Shown: positions 6,416 to 30,786, counted from the stretch's first letter. The stretch is DNA of 64,000 nt from Chrysomallon squamiferum (GCA_012295275.1 CM022679.1:1302001-1366000); one strand, 5' to 3'. Numbers and translations: made by a program. Notes: generated by a model not told the origin, from the letters alone.

Positions 6416-8067
6416 TATGTTATTAATGTTTTTTTAATACCCAGGCTGTAGTGACTTTAGACACACTTTGCTATTTCAGGTTTGCCTCCAGGAAGTGACC
6501 ACAGACTGTATGATTTAGAAGTGATTGAGTTGAGTCCTGGAATCTCATTCATACTAGTGCTGCCACCTGCAGAAGACGTCTTTATTGTGCCTGGACAGAC
6601 AGAGGAACTGACAGACAGACAGAATCTCATATTTCTACCTGTGCAGGTTTTTGAAATGAGTAAGCATTTTAAATTTAGTTTCTAAAAACGCATTCCCTTC
6701 AGTTCATATTTCATTTTCAATAATGTACATACCTTCAGTTGATATATTGATCTATAAAGTTTATATTCTTACTTAACATAAGTTTATATTTTCAGTTGAC
6801 ACTGACATATCAGTGTTTATATTTTCAGTTCACTCAGTGACCTATTCGTATTTTCTGTTCACACAGTGACCTATTCATATTTTCAGTTCACACACTGACC
6901 TGCATTTATATTTTCAGTTCACACAGTGACCTGTTCATATTTTCAGTTCACACACTTTACTAGCCATGTTTATATTTTCAGTCCACATGTCGACCTATCA
7001 GCAGACATTTATCACACACTATTCACGTCTGTCTTCAATACTGGAGATGGACATCAACTTAGCTCAACAGGCGCAGAGACAGGTAACCAGTGTTATTACT
7101 CTTACTGTTAGTGTTATCACTTAACTACTACTACTAGTACTGTTATTATTATTATTACAGCTACTATTCCTACTAACTATTGTTACTACTTCTACTTTCA
7201 AAACTACTACTTCTTCAGCAACCACTACTGCTATTAATACAACAACACCTACTACCTACTACTACTACATCAAGAACTAATATTGCTGCTATTACCATTT
7301 ACCATTCACTGTTTTATGTTTTTAAATGTTTTTTAAATTTGCAGGCATTTTCTCCCGAGGAGGTGAGCATCGCCAAAGATCGCGTGGACATCATGATACA
7401 GCTGCAGCAGAATCTCGACATGCTGTGGAAGAGCGTTCGCTGGGTCATGGACATCATCACTTTCGCGAGAGACCGCAACATGCGCGGCGGTGTCCCCATC
7501 AGCAAGTTCCTCAACTCCGACTATGAAAACGACGACGCGCCAGAAACGAACAGAAAAATACAGGACAACAACAACTCCTCCTCCAGTGTCCCGTGCAACT
7601 CCAACGAAATCAGCGTCGGCAAGGACAACAGGAAAATTGCCAAGTTCTACGACCCCAACGAGGAAGGCTTGAACGGAGACTCGTGCGACTCGGCCGCTTC
7701 GGCCGCAAGCAGGCAGCCAACGTCAGGCATCCTCCGCGTGTACGCTGCCTACGACTGCGGCCTGTCCAAGGGCATCAGCGTCAAGCTGAACGTGACGGTG
7801 AGGACAACAGCCAGAGACGTGATAAACCTCGTCGTGCGACAGCTCAACAAGGCAGTGGTCTCGCGGGGGAAGGAGGGGCCGGTGTACAGTGACGAGGAGC
7901 TGGACGACTTCTGTCTGGTTGCAGTGATTGGTGCGAGGGAGAGAATTCTCAGAGACGATTATCAGCCACTCACACTGCAGAACCCGTGGACTAAGGGCAG
8001 GTTGTACGTGAGGTTGAGGAGTAACATCCTGGCAGCCATCCAGCAAGGCCACGCGACAGCAGTGTAG
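1581..8067 (+). CDS. ANKFN1: Ankyrin repeat and fibronectin type-III domain-containing protein 1 / wide awake-like, 3' part (5' exons lie upstream of the window), with a C-terminal Ras-association-like domain
   Basis: Phase-consistent GT-AG exons: 1581-1694, 1969-2068, 2612-2747, 3343-3456, 3805-4023, 4774-4940, 5208-5326, 6480-6659, 6982-7082, 7345-8067 (TAG). Recognised family motifs: KFQKSLKRGVYMACLLY..VLVTSEEQLPIVEVDE, LGIHDLGQFYHKPLKD, GLYLGYLKL..PNVLPHVKVRDCANVSREEWE, HRLYDLEVIEL, and GILRVYAAYDCGLSKGISVKLNVT (RA-like). Confidence 0.9.
6780..6981 (+). repeat. ~30-bp degenerate tandem repeat (ATATTTTCAGTTCACACAGTGACC) duplicating the acceptor of the ANKFN1 exon at 6982
   Basis: About six copies precede the true TATATTTTCAG|TCCACATGTCGACC junction. 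Confidence 0.75.
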
Positions 8068-15836: not shown

Positions 15837-18800
15837 TTAAGTCTTCAGTCCACATCGACGCATCACCTGAAATAAAGTACACATGTTGTGAAAATATGTT
15901 AACAGTTCAGAAGACAATCACAAAAACAGAAAAACAACCAATAATCTTTATAAATGTAAAATGTGCAGAAAATATATTTTATTAACTTAGTTTAAATTAT
16001 TGTATATAAGTATTGTAAGTTACCTCTTCATACAACGTCCAAGCTGTTGCTGTCATCAGAGTGCGACGTAGCATTCGTGGAACAATACCACGCCAGAACC
16101 CCAGTAATCCGTCTCTCTGAATCACAAAATATTCAAATCAAGACAGTGTCTAGTCATTCATTACAAAAACATATACAAATATGCATATTAATGTATCATT
16201 TGTAACAAAGACTAAGACAGCAGCGAATAAACTGAAGTGAATTAAGACAGATTTTAAAATTATTAACTATTTAGTCTGAGTAATAACAGTGAAGGAGAAA
16301 AATGGAAAATAATTTTATGTTAGCATGAAAAGGTGTTCATGTGTCATACAACACAAACATCCTGGATGTGTTAAATGACCCACAGTGCAGCGTACAGGTA
16401 ACAGATGTGTGAAGTACTGGTGTGAGAAAAGAGAATTGCTAATAAAGAGAAGTGACAGACAGACACACACCTGGTAGACGTGGATGGCAGTGAGGTGGAT
16501 TCTGCCGTACTTGTCTGGGTGTAGTTGTGAGTGTGTCTTGACGACGTCAGCGGGCTGAGTGACGAGTGACGTCAGCACCCCAGCTATCAGTCCACACGTC
16601 AAGTGCTGAAGGGGAGCAGCATTCTGCTTTGCATCTGTTTTAAACATTTTAACAGTCAGCACAGAGAAACAGAAGTACTTAAATAAAACATCTTTTAAAC
16701 TATCCAGTGATTAAAAAATTAATGTTAATTTATGTATACTACGACGTGAATCAGGTTTTGTAGTCTATAAAAAGAACAATTGTGCTGAAGGGATATTTTC
16801 ATTACCTGCTGAAAACAGAACAGTTTCTCTCCAACAGGTTTTCAGAATTAAAGTTTATGCATTTTGAAATATTTAAATATATAATTCTGTGTAATGTTTA
16901 TCTGCTGCAATGAAGGTAATGAGTCATATATAAACATATATCAGTGAATACACAACTCACATTCTGGTATGTTTTTCTTGAGCTGAGTGTAAAACATCAG
17001 GTAGAGGGCTGAGAATGGGACGTCTCTCATCAGTGTGGGTGCTAGACCACTGTACAATCCTGCAGAGAAACAACACAGCAACAGTTATTTTAAACTATCA
17101 TTACACTAACCTAGCAACAGTTATTTAAAAACTATCATTACACTAACCTAACAGCAGCAGGGTATCTGTTACGTCACATTTGCATAAGCATCATAGACAT
17201 TAAGTGTGTCTCTAATACCTTAAATACACATTATCTGCATATTAAATCTTAGCACAGTATATCAACATAGTACTAAAACCAGATAAATGATTTTAAATTT
17301 AAATCATTATTCAACTTTGAAAAAAATATATACATGAGGTTTGACTCCTCTGATCAAAAGCAATATGATAAAATATTTGTTGAAGAAGAAAAATTAAACT
17401 GCTGAGTACATCTACTGATTTAAGTAAAGAATGTGAAACATACCTCTGAAACCTTCCTCACGAAAAGTTACCACCACAGCCTGAGACAAACTCTTATATG
17501 CAAACTCGTTACTCTTCAATGAAAAAAAACACATCAGTTAATAATGTTTAAAAATCAATTCCAACAGAAATGTACTCAGTTACTTCATCAAAAATAATTG
17601 CAAGTATCACTGTTGTTTTTGTTTTTTAAAGTAATAATCCAATGTGTTCTTCCCAATTTAAATTTTAGTTTACATAAGCTATTCTGAATTTCAACTTCAC
17701 TAAATTATATTTGTAAAAACATTACCTAAACACAAATTTGTTTTTCATGCAGACACTTGTTTATTTTGCAACAAAGTTGAGATGAAAAAGCAAGTTTTAC
17801 TTACTTCGTATCGAATTTTGATGACAGTGAAAGGCAGAAGCAGAACGCTGGCGAAGGCTCTGGCCACGCCCCCCATCTGAACTGATTCCAACGGGCGGGG
17901 GTCAGAACTCCTGAAATTACATTTATCTTTTTACTTTCTCATTTTTACAAAATAAACAACAAACAATAACTGTGTTTTAGAACAAACAAATGTTTCAAAC
18001 TACATATTAATTTAAAATATAATCTTCTACATTTTAAATTTTATTATTGTAGTAGCTAATAAACTGAACTCTTTTTTCATAACACAAATTAAGTTTTGCT
18101 TTTAATTGGTGACTTACCCAAAATTTGTCCTTAAGAAGTGAAGACTGGAAAAGTAGATACCAACTCCAGGAACACATCTCATGATTGACTAAAATTCAAA
18201 ACAAATAATGATTATTAGAAACCAAAAATATAAAAATTATTTTTAATTTGTTAGGCACACAACTACATTTCCCTACAAATCTAAAATAAAAAACAAATGA
18301 TTTGTGTACTAATATTTGTAACAGTTAATATTAGGAGTGCACAAACACGTCTGGTAGCAGTAATGTGGAGAAGAGCTGCTTTATTTTATAAAAGTTCAAA
18401 ATGTCACTTACCGGCACTAAACCCCTCCACAGTCCTAGCACGTGGTCGCGCTTCACTACACTGGTGGCAACAGCAAGCATACCTAGTCTTGGTCTGCAAT
18501 CAAACAGCAAATATTCTTTTACATCATCAGCTTCATTATTGTATTATTATTACCATCATCACAATTTTTATTAATTTTTTTTTTAAATACAGATAGAGCA
18601 TATATAACTATTATATCTTTGTCGTATTGAAAATAAAATGTAAACGCAGACTCACCCCAATGTTACGGATGACTGCACTCTGGTTTTGATCAGATCGAGA
18701 GGCTGGAACAGTAATGTAGAACATGTTCCACTCAGTGATCCAGCAATGAACGATTTGACAAGAGGAGACTGAAAATATCAGTTAACGACATTACAGCATC

Positions 18801-22249: not shown

Positions 22250-23968
<1,719 letters not shown>

Positions 23969-27573: not shown

Positions 27574-28230
27574 TTAAGCTACGACGCCACCGTCTCCAGC
27601 GTCGTCAGCTCCATCTTCATCGACAGCTTCTACAACTGCAAGAAAAATTTGTTATTAGTTTCAAATTTTTAAAATTTGAACGCGAGAAATTACACGCGTT
27701 TTGAATCATTACTTACGCTCATCTTTGTCCACGAAGTTGAAATCGTCCAATTCAGCGGCGTTCAGTTTGCCGTCACCATCGCTATCTGCAGCGTGGAATT
27801 TTTTCATTTGAACCACGTTTGTGGGTTTCAGACCCGATGCTACAGCGATTTCATGCAGATCAGCAAAACCATCTCCGTTCAGATCCAGTTCTTTCAAAGC
27901 TGCGACATCGTCAGCATCCTGAAAGGACCACATTTTTAATATTTGACGTTTACCGAGACGTTAGCAGATCAAGCTTACTGAAACCGTTTAAATAATTCTG
28001 TATCGAGATTTTCAAACTACCTCTGCTGGATGAGCTCGCATGTCCAGTCCTCTCTTCCTCTTGCACACCTTGCATGCCCAGCTCCTGGCCCACTTACAGG
28101 CCGCCATACAACCAAGTGTGTGATACGGACTGACGCGAATTCTTCGCACGGATCGGAAGAACCAGCCGTCCACGTTTTCAGGAACCAAGGTCAAGGCCAA
28201 CAGAACCAGCAAGAAATACATGGCTTTCAT
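27574..28230 (-). CDS. Secreted precursor (copy A, 157 aa): signal peptide + 34-aa cationic Cys-containing peptide + KRKR + acidic two-EF-hand domain; putative antimicrobial peptide precursor
   Basis: Coding exons 28230-28021, 27918-27717, 27635-27574 total 474 nt and are GT-AG. A non-coding exon 1 has its donor at 28428 and AATAAA lies at 27540-27535. Protein: MKAMYFLLVLLALTLVPENVDG/WFFRSVRRIRVSPYHTLGCMAACKWARSWACKVC/KRKR/GLDMRAHPAEDADDVAALKELDLNGDGFADLHEIAVASGLKPTNVVQMKKFHAADSDGDGKLNAAELDDFNFVDKDELVEAVDEDGADDAGDGGVVA. The gene structure is solid; the function is inferred. Confidence 0.85.
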
Positions 28231-28506
28231 TCTGCAAAGGAAGAGAAACAAAACCGATATTCGCCAACAGTTTTTAAAATAAAAAAGAAAGCCAGTTATG
28301 GCCTAGATTTTGATATGAAACGTTTCAACTGCAGCGACACAACAGACATGTCGATATTACACACAGATTTAACCTTTAGGAAATGGTTGAATGTTTGTAC
28401 ATTTAGATACGATTCAACAAAAACTTACATGAAATAATCCACAGCAAACAAACAGCACGGCACAGAACAGAACAGACGAAGAAAAACAAATAACACTGTC
28501 AACTCA

Positions 28507-28609
28507 GTCGACTTATTTATTATAGTACAGTTGTCACGTGACTACACGTTTTCTACGTACTGCACGTTCTTCTCTTTCTCGTGCACGAGCAGTTGTCTTG
28601 TGTAGCATG
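28507..28609 (-). promoter_or_regulatory. Core promoter of copy A: TATA-like TATAATAAATAA and palindromic E-box GTCACGTGAC (28533-28542)
   Basis: Block conserved with 29450-29552 in inverted orientation, just upstream of non-coding exon 1. Confidence 0.6.
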
Positions 28610-29449
28610 CTTCTGTTTATTTTCTGTTACAAACATCGTTTATAAGTGAATAAAGTTATTATATGGTTCAGTCTAATTCCTCTTTGAAACAAAATAACAG
28701 TTTAACTTCCACAATGTTTATATCTAGCTTTAAACGGAAAACAAAAACAAAACCAAAAAAAAAAAAAAAAAAAACATTTATAGGAGAAAAAAGAGAAAGA
28801 TTACATTTCTCCCTGAAAATAGTTTTCTAATGTCAAACTCAACACAGTTACCTCCCTTCATTAGAGAACCTTTTAAATTATGCTTTAATATTAGTCGTTT
28901 ACAACATTAAAACAACTGTCCTAATTTCCCAATACTTTGTTTTGATGTGTGTGATTTGAAAATAATTGCTATCATGTCACTGAAAATTCAATGTTTCTTG
29001 CTACTTTGGGACTCATGTTTTTCATTATTTATTTATTTGTTTATTTTATTTAATTTCATGTTTTGTTAGGCGAATAGTTTATTTCTAATAACGTTAATAT
29101 GAACACTTTTATTAGCCAGAAGGAAGATAAATTACCGAAGATGAAGATAAATAGAATTCATTTGGTCGCCGATAAAAATGTATTAAACAAAAAATAAAAT
29201 TCTTCACCAACATCATATAAATAGACTTACAAATTTGTCACTGTATATTTTTATTCTTATTTTATTTTGCCAGAGGTAGAAATACAACCTTTCTGTTGTT
29301 TTATCTTATACATTTATCTTTCTATTTTCTTTAACGATTAAAATTCGATGCAAAAATTATGGACACTAAAATTATTATTTCATGTTAAAAAATTAAGTTA
29401 CATTGCTTAATAACATTCATAACTTGTATATGAGTTTACACAACACAAA

Positions 29450-29552
29450 CATGCTAAACAAGACAACCTCACGTGCATAAGAAAGAGAAGAACGTGCAGT
29501 ACGTGGGAAACTTGCAGTCACGTGATAATTGTAGTATGATAAATAAGTCGAC
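29450..29552 (+). promoter_or_regulatory. Core promoter of copy B: GTCACGTGAT (29517-29526), GATAAATAA TATA-like element, several ACGTG cores
   Basis: Homologous to the copy A promoter; followed by a non-coding exon with donor TTTCAT|GTAAGT at 29623. Confidence 0.6.
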
Positions 29553-29825
29553 CGATTCGACGACGTCACTTGTCAGAGTTGACCTGTCGTGTGCCTCAGT
29601 TTGTGCTGTGGAATATTTTCATGTAAGTTAACATCATGTCTAACTGTGTTAACGCTTTTTTCCTGTTGGTTACGCCGATTACTTAAAAACTAATCAGTAT
29701 TTTAATATCGACAATCGTTAGTGCTTTGGAAACATCAGAACTTTTCATAACAAAATCTAGGTCGTAACGAAGTCCTTTTAAAACTAATTGGCAGAATATC
29801 AAGTTTTGTTGTATTCCTCCGCAGA

Positions 29826-30786
29826 ATGAAGACCGCATATTTCTTGCTTTTCTGCTGGCCTTGACCTTGGTTCCTGAAAACGTGGACGGCTGGTTCTTCC
29901 GATCCGTGCGAAGAATTCGCGTCAGTCCGTATCACACACTTGGTTGTATGGCGGCCTGTAAGTGGGCCAGGAGCTGGGCATGCAAGGTGTGCAAGAGGAA
30001 GAGAGGACTGGACGTGCGAGCTCAGCCAGCAGAGGTAGTTTGAAAATCTCGATACAGAATTATTTAAACGGTTTCAATAAGCTTCATCTGCTAACGTTTC
30101 GTACGAGTTTAAACTTTACAAAATATTTCTAAATTTCAGGATGCTGACGATGTCGCAGCTTTGAAAGAACTGGATCTGAACGGAGATGGTTTTGCTGATC
30201 TGCATGAAATCTCTGTAGCATCGGGTCTGAAACCCAGAAACATGGTTCAAATGAAAAAATTCCACGCTGCAGACAGAAATGGTAGGTGTATCTGTATAAC
30301 AGTGGGTAGGGAGATCATTTTTAAATTGAAATGTAAATATCACATTTCACAACATTAAGGAAATGTCGTGAAACAGCAAATGTATGCATTAGTGAAATAC
30401 ATCGTAACAGTTGGTAAATGTTCAAATTCTTAAATTAAAAATTGTAGGTGACGGTAAACTGGACGCATCTGAATTGGACGACTTCAACTTCGTGGATAAA
30501 AATGAACGTAAGTAAAAATGTTCAGTAGAATCGTGTTACCGACATTTAGCAGACCCAGTCTTGGGTCACGTTAACCACGTTCTAATTCCAGACAACCGTG
30601 TCCATAAATTTAAATATACCGTTTTAAATGTTCGGATCACTGAAATTTTAAGTTTATTTTTTTGGACTTGTCATAAATATTAATGTACAAGTTTGTTAAA
30701 ATTAATACTGAATTTGTAAATATTTCTAATTTGTAGTTGTAGAAGCGGTTGACGAAGACGGAGCTGATGAGGACGTCACACCATGA
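29826..30786 (+). pseudogene. Copy B of the cationic peptide-EF-hand precursor; as assembled it has a 1-bp frameshift in the signal peptide (pseudogene or homopolymer error)
   Basis: Exons 29826-30034, 30140-30281, 30448-30507, 30737-30786 (TGA). The ATG frame reads MKTAYFLLFCWP* (TGA 29862-29864) because of a 1-nt loss near 29848-29851. The downstream frame is intact and the mature peptide is identical to copy A. Confidence 0.75.

What the first reader, a model, noticed from the sequence alone, without database searches (positions are those of the whole stretch)
27574..30786. Candidate new antimicrobial-peptide precursor: cationic 4-Cys peptide fused through a furin site to an acidic EF-hand pair
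Seen in the spliced 157-aa ORF: (a) a hydrophobic signal ending VDG; (b) the 34-aa peptide WFFRSVRRIRVSPYHTLGCMAACKWARSWACKVC, with 7 K/R, no D/E, 3 Trp and Cys spacing CX3C-X7-CX2C; (c) KRKR; (d) a 97-aa domain with 26 D/E vs 7 K/R and two 12-residue EF-hand-type loops, DLNGDGFADLHE and DSDGDGKLNAAE. Known: basic clusters such as KRKR are cleaved by proprotein convertases; anionic C-terminal propieces accompany cationic AMPs such as mussel mytilins and myticins; paired CX3C motifs define helix-loop-helix alpha-hairpinins. Inference: the propiece is not just an acidic spacer but a folded Ca2+-binding module that could shield the peptide and change its release or activity with Ca2+ (secretory granule vs seawater or haemolymph). 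A toxin or biomineralisation role is also possible. I do not recognise this architecture as a named family.
Basis: partly seen in the sequence, partly recalled or inferred. Interest (0 to 1): 0.85.

Follow-up and report, generated by a model that had tools for sequence, protein, structure and literature searches.

The report
Vent-snail peptide with calcium-binding tail
This is a real, spliced, multi-copy snail gene family encoding a predicted secreted precursor in which a near-invariant, positively charged 34-residue peptide is likely cut from an acidic calcium-binding-type tail and likely acts against microbes; the layout is known from mussel mytimycins, but the peptide itself matches no described family.

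Summary
Observation confirmed. The minus-strand copy (28230-27574) splices to the 157-aa ORF with every count as stated, and RNA contigs join both introns. A second, divergent copy (29826-30786) is frameshifted in this assembly. The architecture is not new: mussel mytimycin has signal, cationic Cys-rich peptide, dibasic site and an anionic EF-hand extension (PMC8004829). The peptide is new: no Pfam, PDB or Atlas match; relatives only in the vent snail Gigantopelta aegis (12 records) and unnamed ENA contigs. The peptide is near-invariant (32-33/34 vs G. aegis; 25/34 columns fixed in 19 sequences), while the EF-hand exon is 49-57% identical, keeping its Ca ligands. The two window copies share a 158-nt identical tract over the peptide amid 59-86% identical non-coding flanks, suggesting gene conversion. 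The same signal/EF-hand frame carries unrelated cargo peptides in G. aegis. The Cys spacing fails the alpha-hairpinin motif, and KRKR is not a strict furin site. Best reading: a host-defence or symbiont-control peptide with a generic EF-hand propiece (0.55). Activity, cleavage and Ca binding are untested.

The parts
28165..28230 (-). Copy A: predicted signal peptide, 22 aa, ends VDG
   Evidence: small residues at -1 and -3 kept in relatives; SignalP not available
28063..28164 (-). Copy A: 34-aa cationic 4-Cys peptide (about 4.1 kDa, pI 10.3, charge about +6.5)
28051..28062 (-). Copy A: KRKR, predicted proprotein-convertase site
   Evidence: KRKR in 18 of 19 sequences listed, NRKR in P0022
28021..28050 (-). 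Copy A: start of the acidic linker, end of first coding exon
27919..28020 (-). Copy A: phase-0 intron (102 nt) separating the peptide exon from the EF-hand exon
   Evidence: joined in RNA contigs of X1 and X2
27717..27918 (-). Copy A: EF-hand pair exon (loop 1 27885-27850, loop 2 27786-27751)
27636..27716 (-). Copy A: intron 2 (81 nt)
   Evidence: joined in RNA contigs of X1, X2, X3
27574..27635 (-). Copy A: last exon, acidic tail and stop
28232..28617 (-). Copy A: predicted 5' intron (about 28428-28232), non-coding first exon and TATA-like promoter (about 28524-28515); similar to the region upstream of copy B
   Evidence: an RNA contig of X4 leaves the stretch at 28231
29442..29825 (+). Copy B: predicted promoter, non-coding exon and 5' intron, inverted relative to copy A (head-to-head pair)
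   Evidence: blastn 27775-28617 vs 30283-29442, 80.7% over 870 columns
29826..30786 (+). Copy B: paralog with coding exons 29826-30034, 30140-30281, 30448-30507, 30737-30786; same peptide; extra intron inside EF loop 2; frameshift in the signal-coding part in this assembly (pseudogene or assembly error, unresolved)
28042..28199 (-). 158-nt tract identical to 29856-30013 of copy B (late signal, whole peptide, KRKRGLD); likely gene conversion

Best explanation
This is an expanded, spliced vent-snail gene family encoding a predicted secreted prepropeptide that likely releases a 34-residue, two-disulfide cationic peptide acting as a host-defence or symbiont-control antimicrobial, with the acidic EF-hand pair likely serving as a generic propiece. 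Steps: (1) signal peptidase would cut after VDG (inferred from sequence); (2) in the Ca-rich secretory pathway the EF-hand pair would be Ca-loaded and would neutralise the +6.5 peptide, aid folding or help sort it into granules (inferred; the fold is predicted and the ligands are conserved); (3) a proprotein convertase would cut at KRKR and a carboxypeptidase would trim the basic residues, leaving an unamidated 34-mer (inferred); (4) the Arg/Trp/Phe-rich N-terminal arm and the amphipathic Cys-clamped C-terminal part would bind anionic microbial surfaces (inferred). Shown: gene structure, splicing, many copies, near-invariant peptide, diverged EF domain with fixed ligands, and an identical tract between the two copies. 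High copy number plus conversion would keep many genes making one peptide (dosage).
For: Same four-part layout as the antifungal mytimycin precursor, including a KRKR-type site, a short acidic linker and an EF-hand pair (PMC8004829; compared by eye). Peptide pI 10.3, charge +6.5, 56% hydrophobic, helical hydrophobic moment 0.55-0.64 at the N-terminus and about 0.5 at the C-terminus; EF exon charge -11.4. 12 G. aegis records with the full peptide on 4 contigs. In run X6 a 128-nt contig over the peptide has depth 563 against about 40-55 for the promoter and last two introns (a hint of about ten copies, not a measured copy number). Spliced transcripts in 3 of 4 metatranscriptome runs. EF loop positions 1 and 12 are fixed in both loops in 15 of 15 sequences. 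Unrelated cargo on the same frame (P0014, P0072, P0047) fits a generic propiece. G. aegis hosts endosymbionts (PMC7895826).
Against: No activity, cleavage, tissue or induction data. Near-invariance is unusual for membrane-lytic AMPs and fits a receptor ligand equally well. No sequence link to any known AMP. No protein of matching mass among the top 85 host proteins or in an exact-mass search (6 masses) of the G. aegis metaproteome (weak, gene models differ). The 3-Cys cargo of P0047 is near neutral and does not look antimicrobial. Seawater-like salt blunts many cationic peptides (recalled).
Confidence: 0.55

Rival explanations
1. The 34-mer is a neuropeptide or hormone acting on a host receptor, and the EF-hand tail is a granule-sorting or Ca-buffering propiece, as in nucleobindin/nesfatin or the land-snail interneuron gene encoding peptides plus an EF-hand.
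For: Extreme conservation across lineages; paired-dibasic site typical of PC1/3 and PC2 substrates (recalled); a gastropod precedent seen as a reference title in PMC8398477 (Bogdanov 1998); short Trp-rich cargo variants.
Against: About ten or more near-identical copies is unusual for hormones; no homolog in other molluscs, whereas neuropeptide families are usually pan-molluscan; no amidation Gly; strongly cationic and amphipathic.
Confidence: 0.15
2. The working product is the acidic EF-hand tail, a shell or scale matrix protein, and the cationic peptide is a matrix anchor or periostracum protectant.
For: [quoted passage not shown]
Against: Selection falls on the peptide, not the tail (32-33/34 vs 49-57%); EFCB1 is 224 aa and a minor shell component; no abalone or limpet shell protein was listed among the homologs (best 120 of 291 shown); I could not map these genes to the hard-part proteome tables.
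Confidence: 0.13
3. One reading: the EF-hand lobe specifically cages the peptide and a change in Ca concentration on secretion switches release or activity.
For: The predicted fold matches calmodulin lobes, many solved with basic amphipathic Trp-anchored peptides including melittin; opposite charges; conserved ligands.
Against: The tail drifts to about 50% identity while the peptide stays fixed, and the same tail carries unrelated cargo, which argues against a tuned interface; granule, haemolymph and seawater Ca would all saturate a typical EF-hand (recalled).
Confidence: 0.12
4. The peptide is a defensive toxin or deterrent against animal predators or parasites.
For: Small disulfide-rich cationic peptide from a multi-copy prepropeptide family.
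Against: No toxin-family match for the peptide; toxin families usually hypervary in the mature region (recalled), the opposite.
Confidence: 0.05

Closest known systems
Mytimycin (Mytilus antifungal peptide precursor; PMC8004829)
   Same: Signal, cationic Cys-rich mature peptide, KRKR-containing basic site, anionic extension with an EF-hand pair; about 150-160 aa; multigene family with pseudogenes; non-coding first exon; function of the EF-hand unknown.
   Different: Mytimycins have 10-14 Cys in a 54-aa variable peptide, a highly conserved EF-hand and are reported only in Mytilida. Here 4 Cys, 34 aa, Trp/Arg-rich, near-invariant peptide with a drifting EF-hand, in a gastropod. No mytimycin was listed in the homolog searches.
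Mytilins and myticins (anionic C-terminal propieces)
   Same: Cationic Cys peptide followed by an acidic extension.
   Different: Their extensions lack a defined fold (PMC8004829); 8-Cys CS-alpha-beta peptides (recalled).
Plant alpha-hairpinins (PMC11591084) and ascidian turgencins (PMC7024374)
   Same: Short Cys-clamped cationic peptides with a helix-loop-helix tendency; one CX3C motif.
   Different: Second pair is CX2C; turgencins have 6 Cys and are amidated; no EF-hand propiece reported in the passages seen; no sequence match.
Lottia gigantea EFCB1/EFCB2 and abalone SMP5 secreted EF-hand shell proteins (PMC4094399, PMC10741955)
   Same: Secreted, acidic, EF-hand-bearing gastropod proteins; one EFCB2 tryptic peptide is cationic-hydrophobic and ends G-K followed by R, hinting at a cargo plus basic site.
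   Different: No 4-Cys cargo described; EFCB1 is 224 aa, SMP5 has three EF motifs; full sequences not seen, homology untested.
Nucleobindin/nesfatin-1 and the land-snail interneuron peptide-plus-EF-hand gene (Bogdanov 1998; title seen only)
   Same: Convertase-type precursor with an N-terminal peptide and a C-terminal EF-hand region (nucleobindin recalled).
   Different: Neural or endocrine, low copy, no cationic Cys cargo; no sequence match found.

Membership tests
Mytimycin | Signal + cationic Cys-rich peptide + dibasic site + anionic EF-hand extension | tested here: met
   against PMC8004829
Mytimycin | Backbone of 10 conserved Cys (10-14 in all) in the mature peptide | tested here: not met
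   4 Cys in all 19 sequences; definition
Mytimycin | Sequence homology of mature peptide or EF extension | tested here: inconclusive
   No mytimycin listed or 40 (120 of 291 shown); by eye the first loops share L-D-[ILV]-N-x-D-G, which is generic for EF-hands; no direct alignment was run
Mytimycin | Antifungal activity and haemocyte expression | not testable with these tools
   needs assay and tissue data
Alpha-hairpinin | CX3C-X4-20-CX3C motif | tested here: not met
   CX3C-X7-CX2C in all 19 sequences; motif from PMC11591084
Alpha-hairpinin | Helix-loop-helix with C1-C4 and C2-C3 disulfides | tested here: inconclusive
   Full-length AF2 model pLDDT 44, unusable
Canonical EF-hand pair (calmodulin-like lobe) | Two 12-residue loops with D1, D/N3, D/N5, G6, E12 between helices | tested here: met
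   D1 and E12 in 15 of 15 for both loops; G6 in 14 and 13 of 15
Canonical EF-hand pair (calmodulin-like lobe) | Binds Ca and a target peptide | not tested
   Complex-prediction queue was full; binding needs experiment
Furin substrate | R-X-[K/R]-R with Arg at P4 (consensus recalled) | tested here: not met
   C-K-R-K-R has Lys at P4; a paired-dibasic convertase site is present
Gastropod shell-matrix EF-hand proteins (EFCB1/2, SMP5) | Detected in shell matrix or mantle-enriched | tested here: inconclusive
   IDs in the peltospirid proteome supplements could not be mapped to these genes

The most novel reading that the evidence does not exclude
Molluscs use a Ca-loaded, calmodulin-like EF-hand lobe as a reusable secretion chassis that cages whichever peptide is fused in front of it (mytimycin in mussels, probably the limpet EFCB2 group, three cargo types in vent snails). 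In chemosymbiotic peltospirids one cargo, the 4-Cys Trp/Arg peptide, was amplified to ten or more copies, frozen by selection and gene conversion, and is the host's effector for controlling its bacterial symbionts, like legume NCR or aphid BCR peptides.
Probability: 0.15. Interest if true: 0.8.

Novelty: new variant of a known kind. Interest (0 to 1): 0.5.

Why it matters
Few gene-encoded antimicrobial peptides are described from gastropods, and I found none described from these vent snails. A short, synthesisable, near-invariant peptide from a symbiont-housing snail is a direct test candidate for host control of symbionts and for a salt-tolerant AMP scaffold. A second, gastropod case of the mytimycin layout, with natural cargo swaps, makes the open question of what the mytimycin EF-hand does (stated as unknown in PMC8004829) testable by comparison.

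Tried and rejected
Whole-genome search: no genome held, so copy number in this genome was not counted; only two copies lie in the window. AF2 of full-length P0003 with 9 sequences: pLDDT 44, pTM 0.23, discarded. Peptide vs PDB sequences: only E 1.5 chance hits. ESM Atlas: peptide exon no usable hit; full length only generic EF-hand clusters at 0.83 or below, including four mollusc clusters of 133-145 aa whose sequences could not be seen. Sensitive phmmer: 10 hits, 5 family members; the other 5 (P0037-P0041) are repeat-driven noise judged from the sequences of 4 of them. JGI metagenome scans: 0 of 69 and 0 of 593 candidates confirmed. Complex prediction of peptide with EF domain and Ca: the queue was full, no result. 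Mapping to G. aegis expression and proteome supplements failed. Earlier scan notes: nothing in 4 look-ups. EF-domain tree: 15 rows, 1 of 12 inner branches strongly supported, window row on a long branch, so no order of events is claimed. Whether copy B's frameshift is real: no listed contig spans it, unresolved. Foldseek hits of the EF model did not reach E 0.001 (best 4.5e-3, TM about 0.6-0.75).

Full report
OBSERVATION. The region holds two paralogs head to head. Copy B (plus strand, 29826-30786) has the same peptide, an extra intron inside EF loop 2, and a frameshift in its signal-coding part, so its ATG gives 12 codons in this assembly. Six public runs hold part of the stretch. In four metatranscriptome runs of one study, contigs join intron 1 of A in 2 of 4 runs and intron 2 in 3 of 4 (the second joint is an 81-nt intron plus one synonymous difference). 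A run of another study, guessed to be RNA, joins the matching intron at copy B. The contigs are mostly 90-99% alike, so they show spliced expression of the family, not of this exact copy. No listed contig spans copy B's break.

FAMILY. The peptide exon finds 7 of 56 longer candidates, all Gigantopelta aegis. Further searches add G. aegis paralogs and unnamed ENA contig proteins that run from the peptide exon into intron sequence. A filter-free phmmer over 1.84 billion representatives gives 10 hits, of which 5 are family members, the most distant at 62% (P0036), and 5 are repeat noise. There are 12 G. aegis records with the whole peptide, isoforms excluded, on 4 contigs; the two on a 24-kb contig may be haplotype duplicates. 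I did not identify the window's organism; its EF exon is only 49-57% identical to G. aegis copies, so it is likely a related species. No other mollusc appears among the listed hits, though the word-based searches have limited reach and one search showed 120 of 291.

CONSERVATION IS THE REVERSE OF WHAT WAS PREDICTED. In 19 sequences (the window, 12 G. aegis, 6 ENA; isoforms, eight further ENA near-duplicates and P0036 left out) the peptide has 9 variants and 25 of 34 invariant columns, and equals the window's at 32-33 of 34 positions in the 9 G. aegis proteins compared. Among six G. aegis paralogs the peptide is 31-34/34 identical and the tail 55-87%. The tail keeps its ligands: D1 and E12 in both loops in 15 of 15 sequences. 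Between copies A and B a 158-nt tract covering the late signal, the peptide and KRKRGLD is identical, with no synonymous difference in 52 codons, against 6 synonymous and 8 non-synonymous codon differences in 66 EF codons and 59-81% identity in non-coding parts. A run this long arose in 0 of 20000 shuffles of the whole alignment and 51 of 20000 of coding positions only; the synonymous-only contrast is weaker (Fisher p 0.034). Gene conversion is the likely cause, but the cross-species conservation needs purifying selection too. In run X6, which covers introns and so behaves as DNA, a 128-nt contig identical to the peptide region has depth 563 against about 40-55 on the promoter and last two introns, a hint of about ten copies sharing it (the tool warns depth is no copy number).

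A CHASSIS WITH SEVERAL CARGOES. G. aegis uses the same signal and EF tail with a short Trp-rich Cys-free cargo (P0014, EF part 83% identical to the 4-Cys paralog P0009; P0072 has a similar cargo but its model lacks the EF loops) and with a near-neutral 3-Cys cargo (P0047/P0152, 48-63% identical in the EF part). A phase-0 intron separates cargo and EF exons in the window's copies.

STRUCTURE. The EF exon folds as two helix-loop-helix units (pLDDT 79, pTM 0.60; the alignment included 11 calmodulin-like sequences, so the model leans that way). Its nearest solved folds are calmodulin and troponin-C lobes, many peptide-bound, none at E below 0.001; sequence search agrees. The full precursor did not fold reliably. 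The peptide has pI 10.3, charge +6.5, 56% hydrophobic residues and amphipathic ends; the EF exon has charge -11.4. It matches nothing in Pfam, PDB or the ESM Atlas. The complex prediction could not be run because the queue was full.

WHAT IS KNOWN. Mytimycin precursors have a 23-aa signal, a 54-aa cationic Cys-rich peptide, a dibasic furin-like site and an anionic 75-aa extension with an EF-hand domain of unknown function (PMC8004829; passages, part 2 of 5 of the text and part 1 of 9 of the supplement seen). By eye the supplement's sequences show a KRKR-type site, a short acidic linker and two EF loops as here. The architecture is therefore published, but mytimycins need 10 backbone Cys, have a conserved EF part and are reported only in Mytilida, so this is not a member. 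Alpha-hairpinins need CX3C twice (PMC11591084, passages); not met. Turgencins have six Cys (PMC7024374, passages). Secreted EF-hand shell proteins exist in limpet and abalone (PMC4094399, passages and supplement rows; PMC10741955, passages), and the RefSeq name of some relatives echoes limpet EFCB1. A land-snail gene with peptides and an EF-hand was seen as a reference title only (PMC8398477; one search found no text). G. aegis hosts two endosymbionts, and passages of PMC7895826 show no mention of antimicrobial or EF-hand terms in its main text; PMC11871041 reports EF-hand domains in hard-part proteomes generally (passages). Passages of PMC11767717, PMC7653742, PMC5549309 and PMC3039611 added nothing against this. 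Searches listed no description of this family; the library lacks most subscription papers.

MECHANISM. Most likely (0.55) a prepropeptide: signal removed after VDG, tail Ca-loaded in the secretory pathway where it neutralises, folds or sorts the cargo, convertase cut at KRKR, basic residues trimmed, and a 4.1-kDa two-disulfide peptide released against microbes or symbionts. Gene structure, splicing, copy number in G. aegis and conservation are shown; cleavage, Ca binding, disulfides and activity are inferred. Against it: no functional data, an invariance unusual for lytic AMPs, and no trace in the G. aegis metaproteome tables I could search. Rivals: neuropeptide or hormone (0.15), shell or scale matrix role (0.13), a specific Ca-switched cage (0.12), animal-directed toxin (0.05). 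The cage idea is structurally possible, but a drifting tail, swapped cargoes and uniformly high extracytosolic Ca (recalled) argue for a generic role.

VERDICT. Real and well supported as a gene family; a new variant of a known precursor kind with a new peptide.

Noticed in passing
window 30282-30447 vs 27778-27774: An intron inside EF loop 2 is present in copy B and absent in copy A; most ENA EF-exon ORFs also end there (P0048-P0058) while P0046 reads through, so paralogs differ in intron presence.
   Followed up: partly
window 28617-29442: The two copies are divergently transcribed with duplicated promoter blocks about 0.8 kb apart; both carry CACGTG-type boxes and a TATA-like element upstream of a non-coding exon.
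   Followed up: partly
P0014, P0072, P0047 (G. aegis): Two further undescribed cargo peptides on the same signal/EF-hand frame: short Trp-rich Cys-free peptides and a 3-Cys near-neutral peptide with two dibasic sites.
   Followed up: partly
PMC4094399 supplement 3, limpet EFCB2 (119 aa): A tryptic peptide is cationic-hydrophobic and ends G-K before R, like an amidated cargo ahead of an EF-hand part; the EFCB2 group may be peptide precursors rather than plain shell proteins.
   Followed up: no
window 38831-62164, plus strand: Exons with PAN, Sushi and C-type lectin domains suggest one or more multidomain lectin-like receptor genes downstream of the pair.
   Followed up: partly
window 7177-8064 (+) and 16318-16710 (-): Exons of a Ras-association-domain gene and of a mitochondrial carrier gene.
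   Followed up: partly
window 22268-23962: A tandem duplication of about 800 nt (95% over 899 columns) flanked by CT/GA microsatellites; real repeat or assembly artefact.
   Followed up: no
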